In this document: piece by piece, positions 3,801 through 58,700 of the stretch
Layout: every line of letters starts with the position of its first letter
Numbering within the stretch: the stretch's first letter is position 1
DNA from: Yuukianura sp. NJ FZ-2021
Taxonomy: Eukaryota
NCBI GenBank assembly: GCA_046563655.1
Contig: CM102283.1
Location: 8,866,001-8,930,000 of the forward strand
DNA: 64,000 nucleotides
Direction of reading: 5' to 3'
The notes under the pieces: model-generated
The model's database searches: none
Told to the model about the DNA's origin: nothing
The model's input: the letters and a program-made list of their open reading frames with translations, nothing else
Made by a program: the position numbers and the translations under genes

Positions 3801-5113
3801 ATCACTTCCAAAAACTGTTTTTATCCTTGTTAAAATTCAGAACATGCCTGTAAACGACTGTTAGCACCCAGTCACGAAAAACAAATGAACAAAATCTCAA
3901 TTTTCCCGTTAGGCACCTCTCGTTCACTCTACAAAGCCCAAGCCGTAACCCCATCCTCTGTAATTAGCTCAATTCTTTTTTTTTCTCTACTGTGGTTGTG
4001 GTAGTAGTGGCAAGAAGGTTGTGGCGTATAATACTAAATGAAAAATTAACGTAGGGAACCTAGCCTAACCCTCCATCACTTAATGACAGTTAGTTCATCA
4101 GGTTATGCAACTTTTCAAGCGGTTTAAGTTAAAATTTTGACCTGTGAGTAGAATTATTAAAACCAAATTATGATTATAACGGATGCAGCCAATAAAGCAC
4201 AAAAAAGTCAAAAAATCATAAAACTCAAACTTCAGAAATGTAATTGGTTTTTTTCTTTCAAAAAGACCTCTAAAAATTTATAACCTCAAACTCTGCTGAT
4301 TTTTCTTTTCTGAGAGATTGAAGCTTAATCCAAAACTTTTTCAAACATAAAGCAAAAACTTTTCCAAGTTCTTCAATTTCCAGTCAAAAAAATTGAAAAG
4401 ACGAAATTCCACTATTCAAAATGTCAAAATTCTCCACAACTAAAAATTTTCTTAGACCAATCAGAATGGAAATCCCACTTTCTCCAATTTACAGCAAACT
4501 AAAAGCCGAACTTTCTAAAAATTCTCGACTGTAAATTCGAAATTTACAACCGCCATAAAACTCAGGTTTAAATTGAACAGCACAAAAGCATTTAAATTGC
4601 CTAAGATAGGAACCCAATTGACCAAAATAATGTGGGGTCTTTACCTAATCAACTTGTGTCCACATTTTCATTATCGACAACAAAAGACAAACACTGGGCT
4701 CCTCCAATCCGCTGATTTATGTCTTCAATTCCACACATAATCCCATCTAAACGGCAAATCAAAAAACCCTACCCACAAAAAAAGTAGAATCAAAGAGAAC
4801 AATTGAAACTGGGTGTACCGAATCCATTTTTCTGAGTCACAGTTTTCCGCCCATTCTTTGGTTTAGGCTGAACCCAATTCCCAATAATAGAACTCAATCT
4901 CACGGTGTGGCAAAACGTCGTCCATTTTATGAGGGGAGATCGACTGCTTTTCAATACGATTTGCTGCAAGATTTTTTTTTTAAAACACAAGCAAAAATTC
5001 ATTGCAGAAAATAGGGACGAACATTTTCTGCAAGTTTTTTTCTTGCACAGAACGGAGGCGTTGTTATAAAAAGATTGCGGAAAATTGAGACGTTATAAGA
5101 AACATGCGGAAAA

Positions 5114-8100
5114 TTTGAGGAATTGGAATTTTAAAAAATTCAGCTGAAATTCAACTTTTGGATATATTTGGCTTGCCGAGGATTCACGCGTACTCTACCG
5201 TCTTGAAATGTCGGTCTCGTGAAAAATTGACCTGTTCTCTAACTTTTTGACGTGTCCAAATTTTTAAAAATTCACTTGTACACTTACTTTTTGAGGATTT
5301 GGAATTTTGAAAAATTCAGCTGAAATTCAACTTTTGGATATATTTGGCTTGCCGAGGATTCACGCGTACTCTACCGTCTTGAAATGTCGGTCTCGTGAAA
5401 AATTGACCTGTTCTCTAACTTTTTGACGTGTCCAAATTTTTAAAAATTCACTTGTACACTTACTTTTTGAGGATTTGGAATTTTGAAAAATTCAGCTGAA
5501 ATTCAACTTTTGGATATATTTGGCTTGCCGAGGATTCACGCGTACTCTACCGTCTTGAAATGTCGGTCTCGTGAAAAATTGACCTGTTCTCTAACTTTTT
5601 GACGTGTCCAAATTTTTAAAAATTCACTTGTACACTTACTTTTTGAGGATTTGGAATTTTGAAAAATTCAGCTGAAATTCAACTTTTGGATATATTTGGC
5701 TTGCCGAGGATTCACGCGTACTCTACCGTCTTGAAATGTCGGTCTCGTGAAAAATTGACCTGTTCTCTAACTTTTTGACGTGTCCAAATTTTTAAAAATT
5801 CACTTGTACACTTACTTTTTGAGGATTTGGAATTTTGAAAAATTCAGCTGAAATTCAACTTTTGGATATATTTGGCTTGCCGAGGATTCACGCGTACTCT
5901 ACCGTCTTGAAATGTCGGTCTCGTGAAAAATTGACCTGTTCTCTAACTTTTTGACGTGTCCAAATTTTTAAAAATTCACTTGTACACTTACTTTTTGAGG
6001 ATTTGGAATTTTGAAAAATTCAGCTGAAATTCAACTTTTGGATATATTTGGCTTGCCGAGGATTCACGCGTACTCTACCGTCTTGAAATGTCGGTCTCGT
6101 GAAAAATTGACCTGTTCTCTAACTTTTTGACGTGTCCAAATTTTTAAAAATTCACTTGTACACTTACTTTTTGAGGATTTGGAATTTTGAAAAATTCAGC
6201 TGAAATTCAACTTTTGGATATATTTGGCTTGCCGAGGATTCACGCGTACTCTACCGTCTTGAAATGTCGGTCTCGTGAAAAATTGACCTGTTCTCTAACT
6301 TTTTGACGTGTCCAAATTTTTAAAAATTCACTTGTACACTTACTTTTTGAGGATTTGGAATTTTGAAAAATTCAGCTGAAATTCAACTTTTGGATATATT
6401 TGGCTTGCCGAGGATTCACGCGTACTCTACCGTCTTGAAATGTCGGTCTCGTGAAAAATTGACCTGTTCTCTAACTTTTTGACGTGTCCAAATTTTTAAA
6501 AATTCACTTGTACACTTACTTTTTGAGGATTTGGAATTTTGAAAAATTCAGCTGAAATTCAACTTTTGGATATATTTGGCTTGCCGAGGATTCACGCGTA
6601 CTCTACCGTCTTGAAATGTCGGTCTCGTGAAAAATTGACCTGTTCTCTAACTTTTTGACGTGTCCAAATTTTTAAAAATTCACTTGTACACTTACTTTTT
6701 GAGGATTTGGAATTTTGAAAAATTCAGCTGAAATTCAACTTTTGGATATATTTGGCTTGCCGAGGATTCACGCGTACTCTACCGTCTTGAAATGTCGGTC
6801 TCGTGAAAAATTGACCTGTTCTCTAACTTTTTGACGTGTCCAAATTTTTAAAAATTCACTTGTACACTTACTTTTTGAGGATTTGGAATTTTGAAAAATT
6901 CAGCTGAAATTCAACTTTTGGATATATTTGGCTTGCCGAGGATTCACGCGTACTCTACCGTCTTGAAATGTCGGTCTCGTGAAAAATTGACCTGTTCTCT
7001 AACTTTTTGACGTGTCCAAATTTTTAAAAATTCACTTGTACACTTACTTTTTGAGGATTTGGAATTTTGAAAAATTCAGCTGAAATTCAACTTTTGGATA
7101 TATTTGGCTTGCCGAGGATTCACGCGTACTCTACCGTCTTGAAATGTCGGTCTCGTGAAAAATTGACCTGTTCTCTAACTTTTTGACGTGTCCAAATTTT
7201 TAAAAATTCACTTGTACACTTACTTTTTGAGGATTTGGAATTTTGAAAAATTCAGCTGAAATTCAACTTTTGGATATATTTGGCTTGCCGAGGATTCACG
7301 CGTACTCTACCGTCTTGAAATGTCGGTCTCGTGAAAAATTGACCTGTTCTCTAACTTTTTGACGTGTCCAAATTTTTAAAAATTCACTTGTACACTTACT
7401 TTTTGAGGATTTGGAATTTTGAAAAATTCAGCTGAAATTCAACTTTTGGATATATTTGGCTTGCCGAGGATTCACGCGTACCCTACCGTCTTGAAATGTC
7501 GGTCTCGTGAAAAATTGACCTGTTCTCTAACTTTTTGACGTGTCCAAATTTTTAAAAATTCACTTGTACACTTACTTTTTGAGGATTTGGAATTTTGAAA
7601 AATTCAGCTGAAATTCAACTTTTGGATATATTTGGCTTGCCGAGGATTCACGCGTACTCTACCGTCTTGAAATGTCGGTCTCGTGAAAAATTGACCTGTT
7701 CTCTAACTTTTTGACGTGTCCAAATTTTTAAAAATTCACTTGTACACTTACTTTTTGAGGATTTGGAATTTTGAAAAATTCAGCTGAAATTCAACTTTTG
7801 GATATATTTGGCTTGCCGAGGATTCACGCGTACTCTACCGTCTTGAAATGTCGGTCTCGTGAAAAATTGACCTGTTCTCTAACTTTTTGACGTGTCCAAA
7901 TTTTTAAAAATTCACTTGTACACTTACTTTTTGAGGATTTGGAATTTTGAAAAATTCAGCTGAAATTCAACTTTTGGATATATTTGGCTTGCCGAGGATT
8001 CACGCGTACTCTACCGTCTTGAAATGTCGGTCTCGTGAAAAATTGACCTGTTCTCTAACTTTTTGACGTGTCCAAATTTTTAAAAATTCACTTGTACACT

Positions 8101-8657
8101 TACTTTTTGAGGATTTGGAATTTTGAAAAATTCAGCTGAAATTCAACTTTTGGATATATTTGGCTTGCCGAGGATTCACGCGTACTCTACCGTCTTGAAA
8201 TGTCGGTCTCGTGAAAAATTGACCTGTTCTCTAACTTTTTGACGTGTCCAAATTTTTAAAAATTCACTTGTACACTTACTTTTTGAGGATTTGGAATTTT
8301 GAAAAATTCAGCTGAAATTCAACTTTTGGATATATTTGGCTTGCCGAGGATTCACGCGTACTCTACCGTCTTGAAATGTCGGTCTCGTGAAAAATTGACC
8401 TGTTCTCTAACTTTTTGACGTGTCCAAATTTTTAAAAATTCACTTGTACACTTACTTTTTGAGGATTTGGAATTTTGAAAAATTCAGCTGAAATTCAACT
8501 TTTGGATATATTTGCCTTGCCGAGGATTCACGCGTACTTTGCCGTCTTGAAATGTTGGTCTCGTGAAAAATTGACCTGTTCTCGTCACAAAAATTTTTGA
8601 CAAAATATAACTTTTACGTTTACTTTTCGAGGAATTCTAACTTGGGAAAATTCAGCT
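5114..8657. repeat. 176-bp satellite array, ~20 copies, almost perfectly homogeneous
   Basis: gatatatttgg recurs at 5161, 5337 ... 6041 (period 176). I saw one internal substitution (t>c at ~7482). The last copies (8514-8657) are diverged. Confidence 0.98.
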
Positions 8658-8685
8658 GTCGTAAAATCTTAAAAGTGAATTATAA

Positions 8686-8870
8686 TTTATAACAACGTCT
8701 CGATTCTCCGCAAGTTTCCTATAACAGCGGCTCGATTCTTCGCAAGCTTTTTATAACCTCGGCTCGATTCTCCGCAAGCTTCTTATAACAGCGCTTCGAT
8801 TCGTCGCAAGCTTTTTATAACAGCTCCTCGATTTTCCGTAAGCTTCTTATAACAACGTCTCGATTTCTGC
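8686..8870. repeat. Subterminal ~31-32-bp tandem repeats of the TIR element
   Basis: About 5-6 copies of a ttataacagc-ctcgattctccgcaagct-like unit. Inverted copies lie at ~5055-5120. Confidence 0.85.
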
Positions 8871-9850
8871 AAGAAAAAAACTTGCAGAAAATGTTCGTTT
8901 TGATTTTCTGCAAGGAAATTTAATTGTGTTTTTTAAAAAAAGCTTGCAGCAAATGGCGTTGAAAAGCAGTCGATCTCCCCTCATACCATTTAGCCACGAT
9001 TCACGTCAGTCGTGAGCAAATCCATCTTAATCCTTTGACTTTAGCCGATTCCGCACATTTCTCAATTTGAATTCTGCGCCGTCAATTATCCCAACGCGTG
9101 TCTTTTTTCAGTGTTTAAGACGTACTTAAAAATACATTAAAACATGTCCACGATTTCTCCATGCTGACCCTGAGTCGCGTCAAAGTCAACTGACTATAAA
9201 CCCTGAACTTGTCACGACATACATAAAATTTTTAAAACTCATGCTGACCTTCCTCAAAAAAACGACCTCGAAAATACTTTTTCGTTACTTGGATTAGGTT
9301 TCAGTTTTAAACATTTTTTCTACTCGGGCACAAACGGATTAAACATTTTTGTTACTTGGGTAGAACTTTCGTTTAAAAAAAGTTTACTAAACTAACCTTA
9401 CTTTTCGTCTAAATCCCTCAAATTTATGAAAACTGCATTAAGAAAATATCCAGATCTCCAGAGACCAGATGACCTCATTACCCCATCGGATATTTTTTCA
9501 TATTTTTTTTAATATAAAAGATGAGTCAGAGTTTTAGTCGGTGCAGTTTGTTCCGGAGTGAATGCACATTGCACTCTCCCTCCCTTCGTGGATTCAAGAT
9601 TTATTGGCATTTAGCAGGCCTTGAATTCCCTCCAGACCAAGACTTTATTCCATCAGTTATCGGCAGTTATGGCAGCATTATACTGCCAGTATGTCAGACC
9701 ATCGTTCAGCACTAAAATGAGCAGAATACTAATGCACCGTCCACCCTCCAATTCCTTTCCCCGCTGAGCAGTCCATTGTCATTGTCATATTTTAATGTTA
9801 CACATCGTCATCATCACTCTGCAAAAACTAACATGTCAAAGGTCACCTAC

Positions 9851-20289: not shown

Positions 20290-21652
20290 CTACCTTTTAG
20301 AAAAAGCACTCAATAGTTCAAGTGGAAGCGGAAATATAACTGTAGAGTTCTTTTCGGCTGCAATTGTGCCCAACGTTTGTAAATACCGCAACTGAAACCC
20401 AGAAAAATTACTAGAAACGTATTTTACGTTTTCGCTTTTGATTGTTTTGAAAATGTTACCTGAAGTGCTGCAGGACTAGCAACCATGACATCAGCTGCTT
20501 GTTTCAGCGCTTTGGAAGCATCCAGCTCACCCTCGGCAGCGATCACTTTAGCTCGAGCTTCTCGTGTCGCTTCGGCTTCAGCGGCCATAGCACGCTGCAA
20601 CTGCATTGGAAGTCGAACGTCTCGCATTTCCACTCTTTCCACTTGAACACCCCACGGGTCAGTGGCTTCATCCAGCAGCGTTTTCAATAAATCCGCAATC
20701 GCTTCACGTTCACTCAAGATTTCAGTAAGTTTCTTGGTTCCTAGAACATTTCGAAGTGTTGTTGAAGCTAGCAGCTGAGTAGCATTACTGAAATGGGCAA
20801 TACAAATTCAAACGTTATCAATCAGGCAAGTCATGAAATGTCTTTTTAGTACCCACCGATAGTCACCAACGTTAGCAACGGCGACAACTGGATTGAAAAC
20901 GCGATAGTAGATGACCGCATCTACTTGGACAGTCACCGAGTCACGTGTCAGAACCTATGAATTGTTTGAAATTTTATCGAAAACGTTTTGAAACGTTCTG
21001 CAACTTGACATTTTTTGAAACTTACTTCCTGTGGTGGAATGTCGTAGAACATTGTACGCAGGTCGACGCAACGATAATCGTCAAGACACGGAAGAATGAA
21101 AAACGTTCCAGGTCCACGAGCACCTAAAATTTCAAATAAATTTATTGGCGCCAAATCTCTGTTTTGAAATAATAGGTGGCGTGTTTGACCTCACCTCCAG
21201 TTCTAAGACGCCCGAGGCGAAAGATGATTGCTCGCTCATACTCTCTAACAACCTGCAAATTACACTTTACACAAAAAGTTTCAAAAATTTGCCGCTAAAA
21301 TTCAAAAATTAACCTTGAAGCAGAACCAAATAGAGATGGGAAATGTTAAGATCACGAGAACTGTACTGAAGAAAGCCGCCAGGCATTCCACAACCCCGCC
21401 ACCACCTCCTCCTCCGACTAAAATTTATTAAAAATCCGTAAATATGTAAATATAATTGTATAAATATTTAAAACATAAATATAATACATGCTTAAATTTT
21501 ATTGCTTTACTTGGTGTGTGAGTCTCGGACGTCCCTTTCTTAACATCGGATTTCGGTTGTTGCTGCTGAGGCGGTGGACGTTGTTGTTGCAATTCATTGC
21601 TGACTTGCGTCTGTGGCGCGAAGTTTTGTCTGGAGTTTGAAGGGTTCGCCAT
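20290..21652 (-). CDS. Stomatin / band-7 (SPFH) protein, paralogue A, 7 exons, 309 aa
   Basis: Exons 21652-21511, 21417-21314, 21252-21195, 21123-21026, 20954-20857, 20787-20460, 20391-20290; all introns GT-AG and in frame. Motifs: hydrophobic hairpin [73 protein letters not shown]. Confidence 0.95.
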
Positions 21653-21969: not shown

Positions 21970-23340
21970 TTAGCGTCGAGCGAAAGGCGCCAAGAGGTCA
22001 ATCGGCAGCGGGAAAATAATTGTGGAGTTCTTTTCAGCAGCAATCGTCCCGAGAGTTTGCAAATAGCGCAACTGAAATCCAAATTTTCTCGTTTTTGAGT
22101 CAAATTCCGATATATTTTTTGGAAAATGTTACCTGAAGTGCTGCAGGACTGGCAACCATAACATCCGCAGCTTCTTTAAGCGCTTTAGAAGCATTCAGTT
22201 CACCCTCTGCAGCGATCACTTTAGCTCGAGCTTCTCGTGTCGCTTCGGCTTCAGCGGCCATAGCACGCTGCAACTGGGCTGGAAGTCGCACTTCGTTCAT
22301 TTCGACTCGTTCCACATCTACTCCCCAAGGTTCAGTAGCTTCATCCAAGGTTGATTTGATTGTTGTAGCAATATTTTCACGATCAGTCAACAGTTCAGTC
22401 AGCTTTTTAGTTCCGAGGACATTCCGAAGCATTGTGGAGGCCAGAAGTTGAGTTGAATTTCTGAAAGGCGGGAAAAATTTGAACTGAAACTGAAAATTTC
22501 AGCGACTGCGCATGTCACAAAACCGAACTTTGTAGCGACATACCGGAAGTCACCAACGTTGGCCACGGCGACAACTGGATTGAAAACGCGGTAGTAGATG
22601 ATTGCATCCACTTGAACCGTCACTGAATCATGTGTCAGAATCTAAAATTTTTCAGTTTTAGAAAAATTTGTTTCGAAATTTTATTTTTGTGAAAATAAAT
22701 TTTTGTAAACCTTACTTCTTGTGGTGGAATGTCGTAGAACATTGTGCGCAGGTCAACACAGCGGTAGTCGTCAAGACACGGAAGAATGAAAAACGTTCCA
22801 GGACCACGAGCACCTAAAATCAGTTTCAAAAAAGTCAAGGTCATCAATTTTTTTTTTAAATTTGAAGTGACCTTTGACCTCACCTCCACTACGAAGACGG
22901 CCCAGACGAAAGATGATTGCTCGCTCATACTCTCTGACAACCTGAAAAATTACATTTCCTTAAAAAGTGTTTAAAAATTTGGCACGATTTTTGAAAAGTG
23001 TTCGAAAACCTTGAAGCAGAACCAAATCGTGACTGGAAACGTCAAAATCACGAGAAGCGTGCTGAAAAAAACGGCCAGACATTCGACTATCCCGCCACCT
23101 CCACCTTCCACTAAAATTTAATTAAAAGTTAATTAATATTTTAATAATTTTTCTAAAACATCTTAATTTTAATGCTGTTCTTTGTGACTTACTTGCTTTG
23201 TGCGACTCCTTTACGTTCACATTTGGATTTGTGATTGGCTGTTGCGACTGCTGGCCCATTGGCGCCTGAGGTGCGTTAGGACCAGGTTCACCCTGCGGCG
23301 GACCACCAAAGTTTTGTCTCGAATATGCTGGAGTGGCCAT
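21970..23340 (-). CDS. Stomatin / band-7 (SPFH) protein, paralogue B, 7 exons, 310 aa
   Basis: Exons 23340-23193, 23110-23010, 22941-22884, 22813-22716, 22641-22544, 22460-22133, 22071-21970. Same intron positions and motifs as paralogue A. Confidence 0.95.
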
Positions 23341-24225: not shown

Positions 24226-25234
24226 TAAGGGTCGGAATCCGGATTTTGGCTCCGGATTCAAATCCAGATTTTTGACGGATTCGGATTATCCAAAATCCGG
24301 ATTTTTAAATACTGAAATCCGGATTTCTACGGATTTCAAGAGCTATTCGAGGGCATGTGTGGTATAAAAAAAAAATAGCCAACCTCAGATTTACTCAATT
24401 TCAGGGTTCGTAAAATATCGTATTTTGTATTGTTGTGCCAATGTTGTGCTAATGTTGTGCTAATGTTGTGCCAATGTTGTGCTAATGTTGTGCCAATGTT
24501 GTGCCAATGTTGTGCCAATGTTGTGCCAATGTTGTGCTAATGTTGTGCCAATGTTGAGCCAATGTTGTAATGTTGTGCCAATGTTGTGCCAATGTTGTAA
24601 TGTTGTGCCAATGTTGTAATGTTGTGCCAATGTTGTGCCAATGTTGTGCTAATGTTGTGCCAATGTTGTGCCAATGTTGTGCTAATGTTGTGCCAATGTT
24701 GTGCCAATGTTGTGCTAATGTTGTGCCAATGTTGAGCCAATGTTGTAATGTTGTGCCAATGTTGTGCCAATGTTGTAATGTTGTGCCAATGTTCTAATGT
24801 TGTGCCAATGTTGTGCTAATGTTGTGCCAATGTTGTGCCAATGTTGTGCTAATGTTGTGCCAATGTTGTGCCAATGTTGTGCTAATGTTGTGCCAGTGTT
24901 GTACCAATGTTGTAATGTTGTGCCAATGTTGTGCTAATGTTGTGCTAATGTTGTGCTAATGTTGTGCTAATGTTGTGCTAATGTTGTGCCAATGTTGTGC
25001 CAATGTTGTGCTAATGTTGTGCCAATGTTTCATTTTTTTTCAACACTAGTAATTTGATTCAAAAAATAAACACGCCGAATTTATCATCAAGGTTTTAGCT
25101 ACGAGTGTTTCCAACCTGCAATTCCGAGTTAACACAGAGATTGAAATCCGGATTTAAATCCGGATTTCAGGATTGAAATCCGTCAAAATCCGAAATCCGG
25201 ATTTTAAGAAACCCGTTCCGGATTCCGACCCCTA
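24226..25234. mobile_element. hAT-type non-autonomous element (MITE), 1009 bp
   Basis: TIRs taagggtcggaatccgga / tccggattccgaccccta. Perfect 8-bp TSD attgtaat (24218-24225, 25235-25242). Palindromic aaatccggattt motifs are repeated subterminally at both ends. Confidence 0.92.
24430..25030. repeat. 11-bp minisatellite (aatgttgtgcc/aatgttgtgct) with 8-bp variants (aatgttgt)
   Basis: Directly visible, about 55 units, inside the hAT element. It is the source of the spurious AQHWHN / LCQCC ORFs. Confidence 0.97.
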
Positions 25235-25820: not shown

Positions 25821-28800
25821 TTATGACTTGGCAGCCTCCCTGTCCCTGTCCGCTTTGGCCTGTCTCGCTCCGATAAAAGGAGCCAAGATGTCAATTGGAA
25901 TTGGAAAGATGATCGTCGAATTCTTTTCTGCAGATATCGTGTTCAGGGTTTGCAAATACCGCAACTGCAAATTAAAAAACGAAAAAGTTTTTTAGAAAAT
26001 GGAATTTTTAAAACCATTTTAAAATTCATTTTAAAAATTGAAAACCGAATCAAGCTTAACGGAGCCCTTGACATTAATAGAGCCCGCAAACTTGAGGTTA
26101 GAGACTCAAGGGCCGGTTTTAAAGTACTTGAGGCCCTTAAGTACCCTTTGCTTAAACAAGTTTGAAATTCGTACCTGAAGAGCAGCGGGACTTTCAATCA
26201 TGACATCAGACGCTTCTTTGAGGGCCCTTGACGCCTTCATTTCTCCCTCAGCAGCAATCACTTTCGCCCGAGCTTCACGAGCCGCTTCAGCTTCTGCTGC
26301 CATCGCTCGCTGCAACTGCACTGGCAGTCGAACATCCTTTCTGCAAAACAAAATCAGATTTTCAAAATTTCGAAAAAGGAATCACTCGAGTGTGGCACCT
26401 TGAGGCTACAAATTAAGCCGTTCAAAATGGAAAATCAAAATTTCGAAGTTCCCTGAGGCCCTTATTGACTAATGGAATTGTTCAACTGAGAAATAAAATT
26501 AAAATGTCTGCTTTCGAATTTTGTTCAAACAGGTTTCGAAAGTTGTGTTAACTTTTGTTTTCCAAAACTTTGGAAATTTTGTGGAATTGACTAAACAATT
26601 TTGTGGAATGGAGTTTGAATTTGAAATGGATTTTGGTGTTTACCGCTCCAGCGGAAATTGAGGGCACAAGAAACAATCGTTAGGCACAAAACAGAAGTAA
26701 ACAGACGAAGGCCAATTCCCAAGTTACTGAATAATTTAGAAATGGAAAATGGTAAAGTTTTGTGCTAGGGTTAAGTTAGGCTTTGTTATGTTAAGTTTTG
26801 AATTTGAACTTAAGAAGTCACAACTTTGAATTTTGGTGCTTACATTTCGACTCGCTCCACTTTGACCCCCCATGGATCCGTGGCTTCGTCCAATGAGCTC
26901 TGCATTGTGTGCGAAATGGACTCACGCTCCGACAAAATTTCCGCTAAATTTTTTGTTCCCAACACATTCCTGGAATCCATTAACAAAATTTTTAGCGTTA
27001 GCAATCCAAATTTTTTGAAAATCAAATTTTTTGAAAATTTTGTAAACTTACCGAAGCGTAGTTGCTGCAAGGAGTCGAGTCGAATGACTAAATAGAAAAC
27101 ACGGAATTACAAAATAAACGCTTTTACATTAGTATAAAAACAAAAATAGTCATTTTAAGCTGTTTTTAAGCGTGGAGGAAGAACGCGGTTATAAAAAAAT
27201 TTAAAAATCGCGGGGAAATCAAAAAAAGCAATTAAAGTTGGAAAAAAATGTTGCTTAGTTAAAGAAGCGGTTAAATTTGAATTTACCTGTAGTCAACGAC
27301 ATTAGACACGGCAACTGTGGGGTTATACACCCGATAGTAGACAACGGCATCCACTGCTACTGTCACAGAATCATGTGTCAGTATCTGTTAAGGTCAAGGG
27401 TCACAACAACGTTAGAAAAGTCACAACACTTTTAGCCAATCAAAATACGAAATCAATATTATTGAGTCGATTCAAAATATTATTCAAACAGCGCAAATTT
27501 TTGAATCAATTCTACTCAATAATTTTTTAGGTCGAAATGGGTTGAAATTTAATTTGAAACAAAAGCTGACCAATCCTACAATTACAAAAAATGTTGTGAA
27601 ATTTTTAGCACTTTGCAAACAGCTTTGAATTCCAAAAATTACGCTTAATTTTGGTAATTTCTTTAATTTTGCGTTTCATCTGTAATTCTTAGCAATTAAA
27701 AAAGTAGAACACCATTATTCTATTTTTCTTTCTACACACTAAACAAACGTTGCTGTAATCAATTTTAATTCAAGTTTTCAGTTTTGCCGCTTTATTCAAA
27801 ATATGTGTCGAAAATGAAGAAAAATGTAAAACTTTTGAAAAAATAGAAATCAAGTTCCTTTGATGGAAGCTCTTATTTGAGTTTTCAAAAGAGCGGGAAA
27901 CTAAAATAATTTAAACTCATTCAATAGCATTCCTTTTTCCGCCATTTGAAAATCAAACTCAATTTGAATTTTTTTCATACTCAACTCAGTTTCCCGCTTC
28001 TAATTTGATCCCATTTGTCTCAAATGAACTCAATTTAATTTAATTCTCACACTTCACATTCACTCTTGACACTGCTTGTCTAAATGACACTCCAATTTGC
28101 TTTCTCCACTTTCACCCCCTAAATCAATTTCAACTGTTCCTGATTTGATTTATAACACACACAATTTTTTTTGAAATTTTGAAAAAATTAATCAAATTTA
28201 AGTCGATGAATCCTGTCTGAAATCACTTATCACTTGTAACATGTGACAGTGATTTTTTAAACCAACTCCATATGTCATGTCACGTGTCAAATGTCACATG
28301 ACTTATTCTCTCCTAGGAAGACTAACTTCAAAATAGGCTAACAATAACTTATAGTCTTTTCTACTATAAGTTAGAATGACGTTGAGTTAGAGTGTTTAGT
28401 GACTGATAAGCAAAGGAGTGGCAGGGAGTGGGAAATTTCAAATTACTTTCACCAAATTTCAAATCAACACAAAAACCGTTTTTCCAAATTGACATTCCCA
28501 CACGATCGAAACTTGACTTTAACGCAATTTCGGAGAATAAGTGAAAGCAATTAAGGTTGACGCAAATGCCACCCAGGGGAATGTTAATACTTTTGGACAA
28601 TTGGCTCAAAATGGGTCACGGTTTGGCCAGAGCGGGAAAATTTAAGTTTTTAAGACTAAAAATCGATACCTGTAGTCTTCTACATTGTTTGTGGCCATAA
28701 TTGGATTATTTACGCGGTAATACACGACTGCATCAACACTTACAGTCACTGAGTCTCGAGACAACACCTGAGACAACCATTCAACTTTCAAATTTTACCG

Positions 28801-31800
28801 CCAGATTTTTCGAAATTTCCCACTCATGTATTTTTCCAAAATTTCCCGCCAATGTATTGTCCAAAATTTCCCACTCTTGTATTTTTCAAAATTTCTCACC
28901 TAGAATCTAAACCAACCTTTCTCCAAAACTCGCGAAACAAAAACCTTGTAAACAGGAAAAACTTTTTGCAAAGTTTTTAAAATTAAAAAAGCAAAAGTTG
29001 AACAAAATTTTGAAATTATTTATGCGATTGTAGGAAGAAAAAGTTCGTAAAATCCGAAGTGGGTCGCCTTTTCCGTTTCTCTTTTGTTCAAATTTCATAC
29101 CGAATGCACGTCCTGTGAAATGTGTGTCTATTTTTGGCCACCAGGGGAAAATCAATCGATCTAAACACTAAAACTTTAGCTGATCCAACATAACGTTAAA
29201 TGAAACAATCTACGCCTTCCGAAAGCAAAAAACGACCAAAAACAAAACAAAAAATGGAAAAGTTCCTTTCGTATCCAAATGTTGCAATTTATGGATCCAA
29301 AATCCCATTAGACAGATTAGAACTTTCGGAATTATTTAGAACCTCAATTGTAAATAATTTAATGAGACCACGGGCATTTTGGAAATGCGCACCACTAAAT
29401 TTTTCTTAGTTAGTAATTACCGTGCCAATCAAAACTTTTGTCTTCTCAGAATTGGCACTGCAGTGCAGAAGTTTGCAATTACATTTTTCCTTTGAATTTC
29501 TCAACTTGTTTTTTGTTTTTGGTTGTTCAACAATTTAGTTCCTGAAATTCCGCTTGTCTTCCGTTGACAAAAGACAAGGAAAGTTGAGTGTTTCTACTTG
29601 CCAAAAAAAAGCGCGGAAAGAACAAAGAAAAAAGTTAATTTGGGGTGACATACTTCTTGAGGTGGGACGTCAAAGGAAACTGTACGGAGGTCCACACAAC
29701 GGTAGGCATCGATACACGGCAGAATGAAAAAAATTCCGGGACCACGAGCTCCTACGAACAAAAGAAAGCGTGGGAAACATTAAATTTTTGGGGTCATTGA
29801 CCTCCAGAGTTCATTGACCTCGAGATCCATTGTACTTTCAAACATTTTCTATACTCCAGCTCATTTTCAAGGTCAATGAACTCCCGACTTCACTAGAGGT
29901 TATACTACTCATCATCAGTCAAGGTTTCGAGGTCATTGACCTCAGCAAATGTCATTGATCCCAGGAAAGGTCATTGACCCCAACAGCATTCGCCCAAGCA
30001 AAGGTTATTGGCCCCCGCAAAGGTCATTGGCCCTAGCCAAGGTCATTGACCCCAGCAAAGGTCATTGGCCCTAGCCAAGGTCATTGACCTTTCCCGATTT
30101 TTTGAAAATCAATGGCTTACCTCCACGGCGCAGTCGCCCGAGACGGAAAATGACAGCTCTCTCATACTCCTGAACCACCTGAAAAAGTTCAAACGGCGTG
30201 ATTGGTTCATGTTCAAATACTATGTTCAAACATGCATGTTCAAATAGAGAATGTAACGAAGCTTTTCAAACAAGGGAAATCCCATTTGGTTTCACGTGGA
30301 GCTCCTCTTTTATAAAATTTGTTCTGGTAAACAGACATGTTTTGGTCCGCTGCATGACGGTTTTGACGTGATCCGTCAAGGAATTGAGGCTCTGAGTTGA
30401 GTAATGGCGTCCCATCGGGATCCAGATCCAACTTCCACAAAGTGCACTTTATACATATGCCATGCTTTGACTAGGGGAAATCGTTATGAAGAAGAATGAG
30501 AGTTGGACTTTGTAGAGCGACGATGTCACTGCAGGAGGTGACTATTAGTGTCACTCACCTTGAAACAGAAGAAGATGGCGATGGGCAGAGTTAGAATGAG
30601 GAGCACAATTGAGCCAACGTTTGCTAAAACTTCGATGAATCCAGAGCCCTCTGGTTCAGCTGAAAACCAAACAGAAACCAAAAAACGTCAAAATTAATCA
30701 TTCAAAATCCACTCAAACTTAATTTCAAGTTTTGAGTTTTCAAATATTAAGCTTAGTCGATAACTCAAACTTCGCTTTTCAGAACTTCTATGATTTTCTA
30801 CGATTAGAAGCCCATTTTTTTTAAATGTTGTATCTTAGAGGCGTTTTTCTGTATTTTCGAAATAAGAACAAACTCAAAATTTGAATTGAAGCATTGTTCC
30901 AAAAATATAAATAAAAACGTGCATTTGAAAAAAGTGAAGTATTCGTATGCTAAATAAGAATTTATGACTTCAAAGGACCCATGAACTTTTCAGTGCTGAA
31001 AAACAAACATGCCCCAGAGACTGTGACACATTTTGCTCAAACAGTTACACTAACTTATTCCAATTTGGAACTGGAAGACGTTGACGATTCAACCCAGAAG
31101 TACCACGGCGGTACTAAATTTTCAATTCAACAAATTTCCCAAAAAAAATACAGCTTCTAAATTTGAAACAAAAAAAAACTGAAGAAAATGAACAAAATAC
31201 TCAACAGATCGAGGAGGCTGTGGAATTTTATCACCGCAACAAAACTAATTTTGAGAAAAACTAAAAAAAAAAAGACTTCAAAAATTTGACGCTTCAGAAA
31301 CAGCTAGGTCAACTAAATTTTAATTTATTAAAATCCGTCATCTGCCTAAACATGATTCGAATCTTGAAATTCAAATGTCAAATTTTGAAATTCAAAATTT
31401 CTGAAATGCAACCACTGGACTTTCTCTAATTAACAATTCATCTTCTGCGACTTTTGGTTCCAACTGTGCCTCTTCTAAAGCCAAACCACGCACTGGTTTT
31501 AGTCTTTTCAAAAACATAGTTTCATTTCTAGGCTTTTCAAAAACATGGGTTCATTTCAATAGGCTTTTCAGAAACATAGTCCTTATTAAAAACATAATCT
31601 CAGCTACGTTTTGGACGAAACCTAAATTATTCAGCAACCTGCTGACTTCAATTTCAGTTGAAACAGAATTACAACCAAACTTTCTCCTAAATCATTTCTG
31701 TCACTTTTGAAACTTCACTCCTCTTAAATCGTTAAATCCCATTTGTGTTATAGTCTAACCTTATTTTCTAAAATGTTTGCTCATTAGATGCTAAACGCAC

Positions 31801-53156: not shown

Positions 53157-55345
53157 ATGCAGCGATATACTAGTACGTTTCGAGGACGTAATTCCAGAAG
53201 TCCATCGGGAAGCAGTGGCGGAAGGAGTAGTAACGGATCTGATGGACTACGTCGCTACGACAATTCATTTGGAAATAGAGATGGACGTGGCCGTTCTAAC
53301 TACACATCCAGTTCCAGTCGCGGAAGTTCACAATTCGTATTGACACAATCAAAACTTGCAACTTAAATGCTCTGTTTTCATGTCTGACTGAATAACTTTT
53401 TTCTGTTTTTCAGAGAGGTAATGGAGGTCGTAGTAACCGAATTGGCAGCTCTGCAGGTGACGATTATCATAATTCTGAGCTGGAAAACTGGGATGCCGAA
53501 CCTGTGCAAGTTGAATCACGAAGGAACGGATCCACTAACGGTCACCTTGATATGAATCGTGTATCGTTGCATTCTCGGGAACCATCTCCAATTCAGTGTC
53601 GTCGAGCAGTAAACCGATTACCCAATCGTTCACCCTCGCCTCAATACTCTCAAAGACGTACACGGAATTGTTCTCCAGCATCTCGGGTTCCTCAACGGAT
53701 TTCTCGAAGTCGTTCCCGTTCCCATTCACCACCATCGTCTCGATACACACAACGTTCTAGAAGTCGTTCCTCCTCTCCATTTGGCAGACGACATTCTCCT
53801 TCACCAATTCGACAACGATCACGCTCTCCCTTTCAGCCTCGTCGCCCTCGATCACCTTCACCGCTGAAAGCCCGTCGTCCAGTTTCATCACAGTCACCGC
53901 CGCCTTACAGACAAACATCAGTTTATGTTCCACCACCTAGAAGACCCCAAAGAGCTTATAACACAGAAGATGAAAACTGGGAAGCAGAGCCTACTGCCAA
54001 GTCTGTGCCAACTAATCACACAAATGGCCGAGCTCATATTATTGAACACAGACCTAACCGACCCAAGTCTCCTGCCTTTGTATCCCATCATGCCAGCGGT
54101 TGTAAAAAACCAAGTAACTCAGTACTGAATAACGAAGATGAAGATTGGGAATCTCCGGTTGTAAAAGCAGAACCGTTGAAAAAATCGCCTGATGCATGTG
54201 ACAAGGTGTTGGGAATTAAAATCAAAATAGAAAAAGACGAGGACACTTCAACAAAATTCACAGTGGAGACAAATAGTACTGGATTCATTCCACACATCAA
54301 GACTGAAGTGCCAGAAAAAGAGCCCGGGGAGGCTTCGCCGTCACCTCCACCTTCAATATCACCGCGGCAGCATCCAATGCCACGGTATGCTTCTTTCTCT
54401 CCGCCTGCTGTACGTCGGCCGGACCGTAATCTATCATCGATGTCAACACACTCTTCATCTTCGTCATCAAGTCGTGGTCCACTGCGTTGCTCCTTCTCAC
54501 CAGAACCTCTCGTACCAAGAACAGTCAGAAAGCGCGCTAATGATGTTTTTGATCCAGCACATTCTAAGGATGAACAGTATCCAAAGTTCCGTGAGTCGAA
54601 GAATCGTGATCGGTCGCCGCCAGACAACGACAGGAGAACGTTTAAAGACAAACGGGGGGTGAGCAACTACAAAAAAACCGGCACTTTTGGATTTGATGTC
54701 AACGTTGAATCGCCGGAGGCTGAAGACCCTGATGCTTGTGCAGTACTTCTTCCTCCGCCTCCACCAATTCCACTGGACGTACCTGCTCAAACTTTACTTG
54801 CATTGGCCCAAGCACAACTGAATCCAACTCAACAATTCGGAAACACGACAGTGCCTGGTGTTGGACTCGGTCCCTTGGGTTTACTTCCTCATCAAATTGC
54901 TACATTTCTGCCTCATCAATTAGCCTTACTGGCTCAGCTGATTCAGCCTCTGCCTCTCCAAATGCATCAAATGACAGAAGGCAGCACTACTTCAGGTATT
55001 CAGATTCCTTTGGCTGTCTCACCAACGTCTTCTACTCACTCTGACATGGCCAATGGGCATCGTATTTCTGGATATGATCAGTTCCAAGGAAGAGGGAACC
55101 ACGGTGGTTCAATTGCATCTGATGAAGGTGTAGACGAAAATGGAGAACTGATTCCACATCGGGTTTCGTCTAAATCAAAAGCAAGTAACGATGCTGACGA
55201 GAACTGGGAGGCTGACGTTCCTGTTCGAAATACTTTCTCTAAAACGACTGACGAACGATTCGGTTTTTCTCAAAATCCTGTTTTTCCAACCGATCCTTTA
55301 ATTTTTGACTATGGACATGGCACACACACGACTGGATTCTCCTAA
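53157..55345 (+). CDS. RS/SP-rich low-complexity protein, 2 exons, 703 aa, no recognisable folded domain
   Basis: Exon 1 53157-53336 (gtattg donor); exon 2 53414-55345 (tttcag acceptor) in frame with the 613-aa ORF. RG/RS-rich N-terminus, RSRSP repeats, P/Q/L-rich segment. Confidence 0.85.
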
Positions 55346-55762: not shown

Positions 55763-58700
55763 CTACATGTAATTGTATGCCCCAGACTCAGAGTTTCTTA
55801 GCTTAGACCTTCTAGAATGGCGCAAGTCATCGTACAAATCGTCTACAGGATCAGCTGGTCGTTTCATAGGGTTAAATCCTCCTCCTCCTCCTCCTAACCT
55901 CCCTCCTCCGCCTCCTCCTCCTCCAAAAGTATCGCTTGTTCTCCGGAAGAAGTCTAACGTATTTGAGCTTTCTGATTGTTGTTGATTAGCGAATCGGTTG
56001 CGATCGTAATCCATTACTCCTCCACGTCTGTCGTCAATCTCTTCATAATTTCTGCCAAAACTTGGAACTCTGGATGATGTTGGACCAGACGGACGTCGAA
56101 ATAAGTCTTCTTCTCTGTCCTTATGATGATTGTAGTCCACCAACCGACTTCGATCACTAGATTCTTGAGATCTTGGAGATGGAGACGCTGGTTTTACAGT
56201 ATTGGGAGCATCCGAATCAGGAGTGTTCGGAATAAGCTTCTCAATTAGACTTGAGATTCTTAGTAAATCATCTCGACTCATGGAAATCGTATTCTTCTTG
56301 GGCTGGGTGATGACGGGAGGAGCTGGAGGTTGTTTCAAGATCGGCTTCAATGCTGGCTTCAGAGGTTCAGTACTAGCCACTACTGCCGGTTGTTGAACTA
56401 CTGCTGGCGGGAGTTTGAGTAGACCAGAGGTGTTGATTGGCTCTTCAGTATCACGTGGGTAGCGTGCCAGAGATATACCAGTTAGAATGCCACGAACAAA
56501 GTCATCTGGATTATCAAACGTATCGAACAAGTATCTGTCGTAGAGCACCTTGTAGTCGTTGTCACTCAGCCCACCAATCCCATACTTCGGTCCATACTTC
56601 TTCAAACATCGTTCACAGGCCAGCTTCCAAGCATCCATGGTAAGTATTGAGGGAAGCGCAGGGGCAGCGGACTTTGGAGGTTCTGGTCGTGTTTGTGGTA
56701 TGTTGCTGTTCATATTCTACAAACATCGTAACAACTTAGATTAATACTTCATTCCATCAGCAGTATTTACTTAACATTAACGTTAATTAGTTAACAAATT
56801 TTAAGATAAGAAAACTTACAAGTGAATTTGGAGTCAATTGTTGCGGAACTGGTACTGGCTGTGGTACTGGCACTGGCTGCGGAGGCGGCATTGGATTCAT
56901 GTACTGGTTCTCAGGACGATGCATGAACGGATCTTCGTGATACTGATTGTCGTATCCACCGTCCATCATTCTTTGTCCATAACTCTGGTAAAAAGATGGA
57001 AATAAGTGCATTGCTTTTTTAAATTCAAGTTCTCGTCTAAGTAGACTAAAACTATTAAGTTGAGCTACTTAAGCTTAATTTTAAGATTTTACATTTGTGT
57101 TATTGGGAAAATCATCCAGAGGATGTTGCATTTGCATAGGACCTGGCGGACCGGGGTATGAATACTGTTGTGGCGGTCCTGGTCCGAAATAGTTTGGGCC
57201 AAACTGCGACGGGGGTCCTTCCATGTCCATGAATGGTTCCATCGGGGGACCCTAAACGTATTCAAAACGTTTAGTTTCACCATTAGTCATTACAATAAGT
57301 TGAGAAAGTTTCGTAACGAGCAATAAGTGTAAGTCACCTGTTGAAAATGTGGTTGTGGCATGTCATGGTCTGACATCATAGAAACTTCAAATGGTGGACC
57401 ATCATAAGAAGTCGTAGAACTTGGACCAGGCGTCTTCATGGCCACCAGAGCCGCATAAGTCCTGCCGTCTATTGGCAATTGAATAGATGCGTAGAGTCTA
57501 GTGTCAGGTCTAAAGAGTTGCTTCTTCTTCAGCAGTTGGAGGACCCTTGTAGGGTACAAGTACAGATCTGGACCATAAGCAGTGAACACTCCAAGGATGA
57601 ACTGCTTTGGCTCTGTCACTACAGTGGACAAGTACTCGGCGTATCTCAACTTCACCATTTCAATTTCCAGTCCGTCAAGTGCTTTCCCCGTTTGTGACAA
57701 CCTCCATTCCAAATGTCCTTCGAAAGCCTGATAAGGCATTTGAATGTTGGTCGGACTCCATCCTACGGAACAAGTTATTAATGACTAAAGTAATTCATTT
57801 GATGATTGATGAAACTAATCGATTGAAGTAAAGTGTTACTAAACTTACCCATCGGGCCAGGAATGGAGCTATTCGCAACTGGATCGTAAACAGCGAGCTG
57901 CAGCGGTGACGTTTGACTATGCATAACTCCTTCCACAGTTGACATATCGAAACACCCTGAATGACGACGACTCATTTCAAGGTTGGCAAAATCCGACTTG
58001 ATGAGAACGACCAAAGATGGATGTAGACGTGGAATGTCGTAGTAACACGATCTGTTCCTGTCCTTCAGCAGCACTTCGGCGACGTTGTTCAACTGAGACT
58101 TGTAGCTCTTTGCATGACTCAAGTATAAATTGTACCTGCGAAGACGTCCACTTATTTCTACAACTATATACTATTTTACAGTAAAAAAAAAACACACTTA
58201 CCAATTTCCAATCATGGACGGTGACATCTTGAACCCTCGCTCGAAAAACATTTGCCAAAGTTTTTCAGTGGCAGTGCGAAACGTTTCTGGAGTAATCCCA
58301 ATCGTCTTTCCAGTACTGTCCACGTTCAGTGCTGCAGGTTTCTTCACTTCTTGTGTCACGACCCGCACAATTTTGGATGCACTGAAATTGTCAATAAAAA
58401 CGTTTTGAAAACGTTTGACTTATAAAAATCAGTTAAATTTTATCAGGCTAGTTTGAACTTACTCATCAAATGTCTTTGTATTTGCAGTAGAACTTGACGT
58501 TGATGAACTTGGTTTGACAGAGGCAGAAGTATTTGCATTTGCACTGCTACTGCTTGCCGAAGTACTTCCTGTCTTAGTTTGAGAGTTGCTTGCATCCTTC
58601 GAGCGATTTTCCGGTTTAGAACTAGAGTTACTCCCTCCATTGCGACTATTTCGACTGTTGTTGTTAGCAGTAGATCCAGGTTTGTTGTTCGAACTTGAGG

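What the first reader, a model, noticed from the sequence alone, without database searches (positions are those of the whole stretch)
4922..8991. A ~20-copy, nucleosome-sized (176-bp) satellite inside an intact IS3EU-like DNA transposon
Seen: perfect 27-bp TIRs beginning TAT and ending ATA, a clean 6-bp TSD (ccattt), ~190-bp imperfect inverted arms, and ~20 copies of a 176-bp unit between them. The copies are essentially identical, with diverged copies only at the edge. Established: TAY..RTA ends with 6-bp TSDs are described for the little-studied IS3EU superfamily, and 170-180-bp monomers are typical of centromeric/heterochromatic satellites. Inference: an internal segment of a young non-autonomous element was recently tandem-amplified. 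The element may act as a vehicle that seeds satellite arrays in gene-rich DNA.
Basis: partly seen in the sequence, partly recalled or inferred. Interest (0 to 1): 0.8.

Follow-up and report, generated by a model that had tools for sequence, protein, structure and literature searches.

The report
Transposon carrying a 176-bp satellite array
A 4-kb non-coding jumping gene with matching inverted ends has a run of about twenty near-identical 176-base repeats in its middle; this is a clean example of a known way for satellite DNA to be carried around a genome, not a new kind of element.

Summary
There are perfect 27-nt inverted ends (4928-4954 and 8959-8985), a 6-bp direct repeat CCATTT on both sides, inverted arms of about 185 nt (82% alike), and a 176-bp tandem array (19.7 copies; 18 of 20 in-register copies identical). 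Contigs of two independent DNA runs show that the arms and the monomer are multi-copy and that the repeated part starts exactly at 4928. So this is one copy of a mobile family. The monomer is much more abundant than the arms, and most copies elsewhere differ from this array at two positions where the diverged edge copy keeps the majority letters. This fits a recent local expansion of a minority variant of an already widespread satellite, not a repeat born at this locus. The monomer is four diverged 44-bp subunits; no evidence links it to centromeres or nucleosomes. TA..TA ends plus a 6-bp duplication match the published hallmarks of IS3EU/GingerRoot, but from one copy only. No transposase partner could be sought because no genome is held. 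Satellite arrays inside non-autonomous DNA transposons are well documented. Verdict: real, a new member of a known kind, modest interest.

The parts
4922..4927 (.). Left copy of the 6-bp target-site duplication, CCATTT
   Evidence: Read directly. Identical to 8986-8991. The left flank is single-copy in run X1: one contig, 4496-4953, depth 238.
4928..4954 (+). Left terminal inverted repeat, 27 nt perfect, starting TA
   Evidence: 2 matches in the window, 0 mismatches, 0 of 100 shuffles reach 2. In X2 a 118-nt contig of depth 67.9 (flank 5.56) starts with its first letter at 4928 (record 13).
4928..5113 (+). Left subterminal arm. It holds a short hairpin-like inverted pair and about 3 inverted copies of the 32-bp subrepeat (about 5041-5125).
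   Evidence: 82% inverted match to 8805-8985 over 184 columns. Subrepeats printed. Summed contig depth is 28-294 times the flank in X1 and 17-59 times in X2.
5114..8457 (+). Core of the tandem array: 19 copies of the 176-bp unit (copy 1 with 2 differences, copy 14 with 1, the other 17 identical). Each unit is 4 diverged 44-bp subunits.
   Evidence: Circular autocorrelation is 104/176 at lag 44 and 100/176 at lag 88, against a maximum of 80 in 2000 shuffles. Contigs with 'goes back 176' joints occur in X1, X6 and X7.
8458..8625 (+). Diverged edge copy 20. It keeps the family-majority letters C (8515) and T (8556).
   Evidence: Alignment; letters read; majority letters (5171 G>C 602,951 of 772,474; 5212 C>T 649,864 of 704,281 in X1).
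8626..8658 (+). Diverged partial copy 21 (start of a monomer only)
   Evidence: Alignment. The same transition sequence appears as a loose end behind 5265 in X2 and X6 contigs.
8686..8877 (+). Six tandem 32-bp subterminal repeats of the right arm
   Evidence: TRF period 32, 5.9 copies, 80% matches; listed in register. TTATAAC occurs 15.4 times per kb here against 0.07 per kb in 9000-64000.
8805..8985 (-). Right subterminal arm, the inverted counterpart of 4928-5108
   Evidence: 82%, 184 columns; I1 and I2.
8959..8985 (-). Right terminal inverted repeat, 27 nt perfect, ending TA
8986..8991 (.). Right copy of the 6-bp target-site duplication, CCATTT
   Evidence: Read directly.

Best explanation
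Window 4928-8985 is one copy (4,058 bp) of a multi-copy, non-autonomous cut-and-paste DNA transposon.

What is shown: TA..TA ends; perfect 27-nt inverted ends; arms of about 185 nt built partly of 32-bp subrepeats (about 3 on the left, 6 on the right); a 6-bp duplication of the target, CCATTT; no coding capacity.

What is inferred about movement: a transposase made elsewhere in the genome binds the ends and subrepeats, cuts the element out and re-inserts it with a 6-bp staggered cut. By its end structure that enzyme is most likely of the IS3EU/GingerRoot (IS3/integrase-like DDE) type, with odds of about one half.

The cargo: a tandem array of a 176-bp unit that is itself 4 diverged 44-bp subunits. 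This repeat is a genome-wide satellite family, far more abundant than the element's arms. In this copy, a minority variant was recently expanded or homogenised between older edge copies. I infer the cause to be unequal exchange, replication slippage or misaligned gap repair. That left 19 nearly identical units flanked by copies that keep family-majority letters. Because the array lies between working ends, transposition of such elements can place satellite arrays at new single-copy sites.
For: Structure: (ends, duplication, arms, array, 44-bp substructure).

Mobile family: in X1 the summed contig depth jumps from 238 (flat over 4538-4911) to 42,125 in the bin that holds 4928, and to 6,771-69,878 over the arm. 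In X2 it goes from 5.56 to 93-330. An X2 contig starts exactly at 4928. 918 contigs in X1 and 80 in X2 were laid; in X1, 345 were 99% or more alike, 359 were 95-99%, 165 were 90-95% and 49 were under 90%.

Insertion seen in two studies: flank contigs run without any difference into the end (X1 4496-4953; X2 4850-4954).

Satellite family: monomer bins sum to 574,511-899,281 in X1 and 499-1,700 in X2. Tandem 176-bp joints occur in X1, X6 and X7.

Local expansion: 18 of 20 copies are identical. The core has G at monomer position 58 and C at position 99. In X1, 78% and 92% of summed depth has C and T there, as does edge copy 20. Copy 1 has A at position 9, as do the loose-end contigs behind 5297 (7 in X1, 1 in X2).

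Non-autonomous: no ORF of 70 aa or more inside the element beyond the left arm. None of the 188 window ORFs of 70 aa or more hit a transposase family.

Superfamily hallmarks: IS3EU is 'always TA..TA', with duplications 'usually 6 bp' (PMC10045372 passages). In GingerRoot, 72 of 77 elements are TA..TA, a 6-bp duplication is called relatively rare among transposons, and inverted ends are 100-150 bp (PMC6839031 passages).
Against: - Only one copy with its flanks was seen, so the 6-bp duplication is n = 1.
- The flank contigs reach only 26-27 letters into the element, below the 31 letters the tool asks for before a contig counts as bridging.
- Summed contig depth is, by the tool's own warning, not a copy number. 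X1 and X2 differ about 20-fold in the monomer-to-flank ratio, which is unexplained.
- No transposase was found or could be sought, so the superfamily rests on end structure alone.
- The monomer shows no similarity to the arms (local score 20 against shuffle means of 18-19). Whether the element gave rise to the satellite or captured it is therefore open.
- The near-perfect identity of 18 copies could partly reflect assembly or polishing. The array length was not verified.
Confidence: 0.75

Rival explanations
1. It is the same kind of element, but moved by a transposase of another or an undescribed superfamily, for example Ginger2/TDD, a hAT or Mutator lineage with an unusual duplication length, or a foldback-type element. 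The TA..TA ends and 6-bp duplication would then be coincidental resemblances to IS3EU/GingerRoot.
For: - Membership is defined by the transposase, which was not seen.
- The duplication length rests on one copy.
- Arms made of unequal numbers of 32-bp subrepeats recall foldback elements such as Tetris (PMC4079207 abstract).
- Repbase assigns non-autonomous elements only when they have the same duplication length and a terminal alignment of positions 1-11 to a classified element (PMC4455052 passage). That could not be tested.
Against: - The GingerRoot paper lists few groups with 6-bp duplications: some LTR elements, Polinton with AG..TC ends, and Ginger2 with TG..CA ends. None of them has TA..TA ends (PMC6839031 passages).
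- The target is not a small-RNA gene (no Rfam family, no tRNA). As I recall, Dada elements, which also make 6-7-bp duplications, prefer such targets.
Confidence: 0.35
2. The direction of origin is reversed. The 176-bp satellite existed as free arrays first, and a piece of it was captured by, or recombined into, a pre-existing short inverted-repeat element. The element is then a passenger-carrier and not the source of the satellite.
For: - Monomer depth exceeds arm depth about 27-fold in X1 and about 4-fold in X2.
- The monomer is unrelated in sequence to the arms.
- The family majority differs from this array.
- Some contigs leave the monomer into sequence that is neither arm nor monomer (loose ends before 5114 and behind 5297 in X1).
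- Capture of a pre-existing tandem repeat was proposed for the Xenopus element miDNA4 (PMC12628747 passage).
Against: - The array edges grade into diverged copies inside the element, which is also what an old internal repeat would look like.
- If elements carry some tens of monomers each, the depth ratio needs no free arrays.
- No free array was actually seen.
Confidence: 0.35
3. The length and uniformity of the array are partly an assembly product. The real locus would hold fewer, more, or more varied monomers, and a long-read assembler or polisher copied one unit.
For: - 18 of 20 copies are letter-identical over 3.2 kb.
- The runs are kept as 31-mer contigs, which collapse identical tandem copies, so nothing here verifies the count.
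Against: - One internal copy carries a single substitution (7482), and the two edges carry distinct older letters. A pure copy artefact would not create that pattern.
- Tandem 176-bp joints exist in contigs of three runs (X1, X6, X7), so the tandem arrangement itself is real.
Confidence: 0.15

Closest known systems
[quoted passage not shown]
   Same: TA..TA ends, a 6-bp target duplication, and long imperfect inverted ends (100-150 bp in GingerRoot; here 51 nt at 92% and about 181 nt at 82%). Sources; PMC10045372 and PMC6839031 passages.
   Different: No transposase is known for this family. The element is non-coding and carries a satellite array. Its arms contain 32-bp subrepeats; a term search of the GingerRoot paper found no occurrence of 'tandem repeat' or 'subterminal'. 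Membership is untested.
Tetris, a foldback-like non-autonomous transposon of Drosophila virilis with TIR-220 repeats
   Same: A non-autonomous element with modular inverted arms. Its internal tandem repeats of about 200 bp also form longer satellite-like arrays in the genome (PMC4079207 abstract).
   Different: In Tetris the repeats lie inside the inverted arms. Here the array is central and unrelated to the arms. The host and the sequence differ.
miDNA4 and Xstir elements of Xenopus, and tandem-repeat-containing MITEs of bivalves
   Same: Short non-autonomous elements with inverted ends that hold a satellite monomer, either single or as an array of variable copy number. They are proposed to grow arrays and spread them (PMC12628747 passages).
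   Different: According to the review, miDNA4 is a Tc1/mariner type. Here the duplication is 6 bp with TA..TA ends. Copy-number variation among copies could not be measured.
Helitron/Helentron elements with central satellite arrays (oyster, Drosophila DINE-TR1)
   Same: Conserved element ends with a central array of satellite-like repeats. The same repeats occur inside and outside the elements (PMC12628747 passages).
   Different: Helitrons have no inverted ends and make no target duplication (recalled). This element has both.
Satellite DNAs annotated as similar to IS3EU elements (oyster CgiSat35 and CgiSat47; half of Tribolium TCAST10)
   Same: Tandem or dispersed repeats that resemble IS3EU transposons in sequence (PMC8268682 table; PMC5844308 passages).
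   Different: Those are similarities of the repeat unit itself to an IS3EU element. Here the unit shows no similarity to the element's own arms.

Membership tests
IS3EU / GingerRoot superfamily | Element ends 5'-TA ... TA-3' | tested here: met
   Ends read TAT... at 4928 and ...ATA at 8985. [quoted passage not shown]
IS3EU / GingerRoot superfamily | 6-bp target-site duplication across copies | tested here: inconclusive
   Met for this one copy (CCATTT at 4922-4927 and 8986-8991). No other copy with its flanks could be read: no genome is held, and there were 0 hits in the metagenome contigs.
IS3EU / GingerRoot superfamily | Autonomous partner sharing the ends and encoding an IS3/integrase-like DDE transposase | not testable with these tools
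   No transposase family in any of the 188 window ORFs of 70 aa or more, nor in the 81 ORFs of 40-69 aa within 1-13 kb. The rest of the genome is not available.
IS3EU / GingerRoot superfamily | Terminal alignment (positions 1-11, at most 1 mismatch) to a classified element with the same duplication length. This is the Repbase rule for non-autonomous elements. | not testable with these tools
   Rule from a PMC4455052 passage. Repbase sequences are not on hand. The end string was not found in the paper library.
Satellite-bearing non-autonomous DNA transposons (the Tetris / miDNA4 / TR-MITE kind) | Inverted ends plus target duplication, no coding capacity, internal tandem repeats | tested here: met
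Satellite-bearing non-autonomous DNA transposons (the Tetris / miDNA4 / TR-MITE kind) | Multi-copy family whose repeat unit also occurs in many other places in the genome | tested here: met
   Arm and monomer depths are far above the single-copy flank in two runs from two studies. 918 contigs (X1) and 80 contigs (X2) were laid at 80% likeness or more. Depth is a rough index, not a count.
Satellite-bearing non-autonomous DNA transposons (the Tetris / miDNA4 / TR-MITE kind) | Variable monomer number among element copies, and arrays without element ends | not testable with these tools
   31-mer contigs collapse arrays, and no assembly is held.
Centromeric / heterochromatic satellite | Large arrays at centromeres or in heterochromatin, associated with centromeric chromatin | not tested
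   No chromosome-scale or chromatin data. The 176-bp length is explained here as 4 x 44 bp. This copy sits next to single-copy sequence.

The most novel reading that the evidence does not exclude
In this poorly sampled invertebrate lineage, most of a genome-wide 176-bp satellite (on the order of 10^2 to 10^3 monomers) is not in classical blocks. Instead it rides as cargo inside an active IS3EU/GingerRoot-type non-autonomous transposon family. Transposition would then be the main route by which the satellite is dispersed into single-copy DNA, with each insertion homogenising its own array variant afterwards.
Probability: 0.25. Interest if true: 0.5.

Novelty: new member of a known kind. Interest (0 to 1): 0.3.

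Why it matters
It is a very clean single-locus picture of a satellite array sitting between intact transposon ends. The target duplication is perfect. The edge copies still carry the family-majority letters, while the core is a freshly homogenised minority variant. If the family proves to be IS3EU/GingerRoot, it would add a little-studied superfamily to the list of transposons that carry and spread satellites, and it would offer a tractable case for timing array growth relative to insertion. The principle itself is already well described for foldback, Tc1/mariner, hAT-like and Helitron elements, so the gain is an example and not a new concept.

Tried and rejected
- Whole-genome search for other copies and for a transposase partner: no genome is held for this window.
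The parallel one search failed on a missing field and was not repeated.
- Scans of metagenome contigs for 24 nt of the end and for a 29-nt invariant part of the monomer: 0 hits each.
- A search of the paper library for 14 letters of the end: 0 papers.
- Transposase in the window: all 188 ORFs of 70 aa or more (14 of them were first scanned) and 81 ORFs of 40-69 aa in 1-13 kb gave no transposase family. ORFs of 40-69 aa inside 5000-8900 were left out.
- An RNA-gene origin for the monomer or the target: no Rfam family at gathering score in the window, none at E up to 1 in 4800-5700, and no tRNA.
- Monomer derived from the arms: rejected. The local alignment score of 20 is no better than shuffles (71 and 112 of 300 shuffles reach it).
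- TA as the true duplication (Tc1/mariner-like, with the element starting two bases further in): considered and rejected. The identical CCATTT hexamers directly outside would then be a 1-in-4096 coincidence. The depth data cannot separate the two readings.
- Naming the host: the only relatives of two window proteins are unnamed Logan proteins at 55-57% identity. The stomatin exon is 65-76% identical to many animal phyla. Splice-site contexts look nematode-like, but this is only an impression.
- Expression: no RNA holder was listed among the runs.
- Array length and an empty-site allele: not obtainable. Only 4300-5300 was laid, and most loose ends and pieces were not shown (79 and 995 rows hidden).
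- Supplementary tables of the GingerRoot and IS481EU papers were not read. They may hold terminal sequences that bear on the superfamily question.


Full report
**1. The observation**

- The 27-nt end occurs twice in the window, at 4928-4954 on the + strand and 8959-8985 on the - strand, with no mismatch. None of 100 dinucleotide-preserving shuffles gave two matches.
- The inverted match continues to 51 nt at 92%. With gaps it continues to 181-186 nt at 82% (4928-5113 against 8805-8985).
- The hexamer CCATTT lies directly outside both ends, at 4922-4927 and 8986-8991.
- Between the arms, Tandem Repeats Finder reports a 176-bp unit, 19.7 copies, 99% matches, at 5114-8583.
- Cut in register from 5114, 18 of 20 copies equal the consensus. 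Copy 1 has 2 differences, copy 14 has one (7482), and copy 20 has 41 ungapped differences.
- A gapped alignment shows copy 20 (8458-8625) with only 4 differences in its first 126 nt and indels after that. A diverged partial copy 21 follows at 8626 to about 8658.

**2.

- The 176-bp unit is a higher-order unit. Its circular self-match is 104 of 176 at lag 44 and 100 of 176 at lag 88. The best lag of 2000 shuffles averaged 62.8 and never exceeded 80. So the unit is four diverged 44-bp subunits (pairwise 21-29 of 44 identical). This explains its length without any appeal to nucleosomes.
- The right arm holds six tandem 32-bp subrepeats (8686-8877). The left arm holds about three, inverted.
- The heptamer TTATAAC from these subrepeats occurs 10.8 and 15.4 times per kb in the arms, against 0.07 per kb in 9000-64000. 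Such subterminal repeats are the usual candidates for transposase binding; this is an inference.
- The monomer shows no similarity to the arms. The local score is 20, against shuffle means of 18.2 and 19.0.
- No ORF of 70 aa or more lies between 5093 and 8785.
- Neither the element nor its target matches any Rfam family or tRNA.

**3. Evidence from outside the window**

No genome is held for this window. Seven public runs hold words of 4600-5300. I laid the contigs of four of them (X1, X2, X6, X7) on 4300-5300 at 80% likeness. I did not lay the whole element, because the tool turns away long repeats.

Depth:
- In X1 the left flank is one contig of depth 238 (4496-4953, no difference from the window).
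- Summed depth then rises to 42,125 in the bin that contains 4928, to 6,771-69,878 over the arm, and to 574,511-899,281 over the monomer.
- In X2 (another study, another organism label) the figures are 5.56 for the flank, 93-330 for the arm and 499-1,700 for the monomer.
- The tool warns that summed contig depth is not a copy number. I use it only as a rough index: the arms are tens to hundreds of times the flank, and the monomers hundreds to thousands of times.
- The 20-fold difference between the runs is unexplained.

Boundary and insertion:
- An X2 contig of depth 67.9 starts with its first letter exactly at 4928. That is where sequence shared among many insertions should begin.
- Flank contigs run into the end without any difference (X1 to 4953, X2 4850-4954). 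They reach 26-27 letters into the element, short of the 31 the tool requires for 'bridging'. I therefore take them as good but not formal evidence that the insertion is present in both data sets.

Tandem arrangement:
- Contigs with 'goes back 176' joints occur in X1 (4 contigs), X6 (1) and X7 (1).

Searches that found nothing:
- Two metagenome-contig scans, for the end and for an invariant part of the monomer, found nothing.

**4. The array here is a minority variant with older edges**

- In X1, 602,951 of 772,474 units of summed depth have C where the window has G at 5171 (monomer position 58). 649,864 of 704,281 have T where the window has C at 5212 (position 99). X2, X6 and X7 agree.
- The diverged edge copy 20 has exactly these majority letters: C at 8515 and T at 8556.
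- Copy 1 has A at position 9, as do the contigs that run on behind 5297 (7 in X1, 1 in X2). Copies 2-19 have T there.
- The 19-copy core is therefore a derived, minority form sitting between copies that look like the family at large.
- The minority letters are not private to this locus. The remaining depth at 5212 is about 54,000, roughly 230 times the flank, so other arrays share them.
- I read this as a recent expansion or homogenisation within a pre-existing short array. The cause would be unequal exchange, slippage or misaligned gap repair (inferred; nothing here shows it).

**5. What kind of element it is**

- A 6-bp duplication flanking perfect inverted ends, with no coding capacity and many copies, makes this a non-autonomous cut-and-paste DNA transposon.
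[quoted passage not shown] IS3EU and GingerRoot form one lineage (PMC10045372, passages read).
- In GingerRoot, 72 of 77 intact elements end TA..TA. Inverted ends are 100-150 bp. A 6-bp duplication is called relatively rare; it is otherwise found in some LTR elements, in Polinton (AG..TC ends) and in Ginger2 (TG..CA ends) (PMC6839031, passages read).
- The element fits on all three structural counts. However, the duplication length rests on one copy, and the defining transposase could not be sought.
- All 188 window ORFs of 70 aa or more, plus 81 shorter ones in 1-13 kb, hit no transposase family.
- Repbase's own rule for non-autonomous elements needs a terminal alignment to a classified element (PMC4455052 passage). 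I could not run that.
- I put membership at about one half.
- The alternative that TA is the duplication and the element starts two bases further in would make the flanking hexamers a 1-in-4096 coincidence.

**6. Comparison with what is known**

- Satellite arrays inside DNA transposons, and transposons as carriers that disperse them, are established. A 2025 review lists expansion of short internal arrays within transposons, the Xenopus elements Xstir and miDNA4, and Helitron/Helentron elements with central arrays (PMC12628747, passages read).
- Tetris in Drosophila virilis provided 220-bp repeats for satellite arrays (PMC4079207, abstract read).
- IS3EU-related satellites are already listed too: two oyster satellites are annotated DNA/IS3EU (PMC8268682, table passage), and half of Tribolium TCAST10 resembles IS3EU-1_TC (PMC5844308, passages).
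- The finding is therefore a new member of a known kind.

**7. Context**

- The host is an animal from a poorly sampled lineage. Two window proteins have only unnamed relatives at 55-57% identity among 5.8 billion proteins. A stomatin exon is 65-76% identical to proteins of many phyla.
- 'Gene-rich' is only partly true. Recognised genes start at 20.4 kb: three Band_7 exons, a Kelch/BTB gene at 49-52 kb, and a 7tm_1 receptor at 61.8-62.6 kb. Nothing recognisable lies within 1-13 kb.

**8. Verdict**

It is overstated in three places:
- The satellite is an abundant genome-wide family, not a local novelty.
- The superfamily is unproven.
- The centromere and nucleosome framing has no support.

The array length remains unverified.

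Noticed in passing
window 24431-25029: A long array of an 11-bp unit (TGTTGTGCCAA), 56.4 copies, 88% matches, lying between the Band_7 gene copies. ORFs through it give spurious low-complexity Pfam hits (DUF3470, PriCT_2, EGL-1).
   Followed up: no
window 20427-20807, 22103-22498, 26843-27106 (- strand): Three Band_7/stomatin exons within 7 kb (E 1.5e-16, 8.6e-16, 2.7e-6). Two of them end in nearly the same sequence and the same splice donor context. This looks like a tandem duplication of a stomatin gene.
   Followed up: partly
window 4334-4537: A stretch just left of the element shows raised summed depth in X1 (278-431 against 238), with several variant contigs and small indels in both X1 and X2. 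It is either a low-copy repeat or a polymorphic stretch.
   Followed up: no
window 4850-4911, in run X2: Besides the contig that runs into the element (depth 5.6), a second contig of depth 4.6 carries G at 4880 and a 1-base deletion at 4900. It could be the other allele, possibly without the insertion, or a paralogue. Its continuation was not shown.
   Followed up: no
window 53396-55345 (+): A 649-codon open frame rich in Ser, Pro and Arg. An acidic Asn-Trp or Asp-Trp motif (such as ENWDAEP, ENWEAEP, EDWESP, ENWEADVP) recurs at least four times. No Pfam family. Function unknown.
   Followed up: no
window 58459-59517 (-) and 62222-62584 (-): These two coding stretches have only one and two relatives, all unnamed and 55-57% identical, among 5.8 billion proteins. 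The host lineage is very thinly sampled.
   Followed up: partly
runs X6 and X7 (metagenomes), laid on window 5116-5300: Two metagenome runs from other studies hold tandem 176-bp monomers of the family-majority type at depth 2-5, but nothing of the flank or the arm. The host or a close relative occurs in those samples.
   Followed up: no
window 29930-30089: A 19/38-bp tandem repeat, 8.6 or 4.3 copies, 76-80% matches. Not examined for flanking inverted ends.
   Followed up: no
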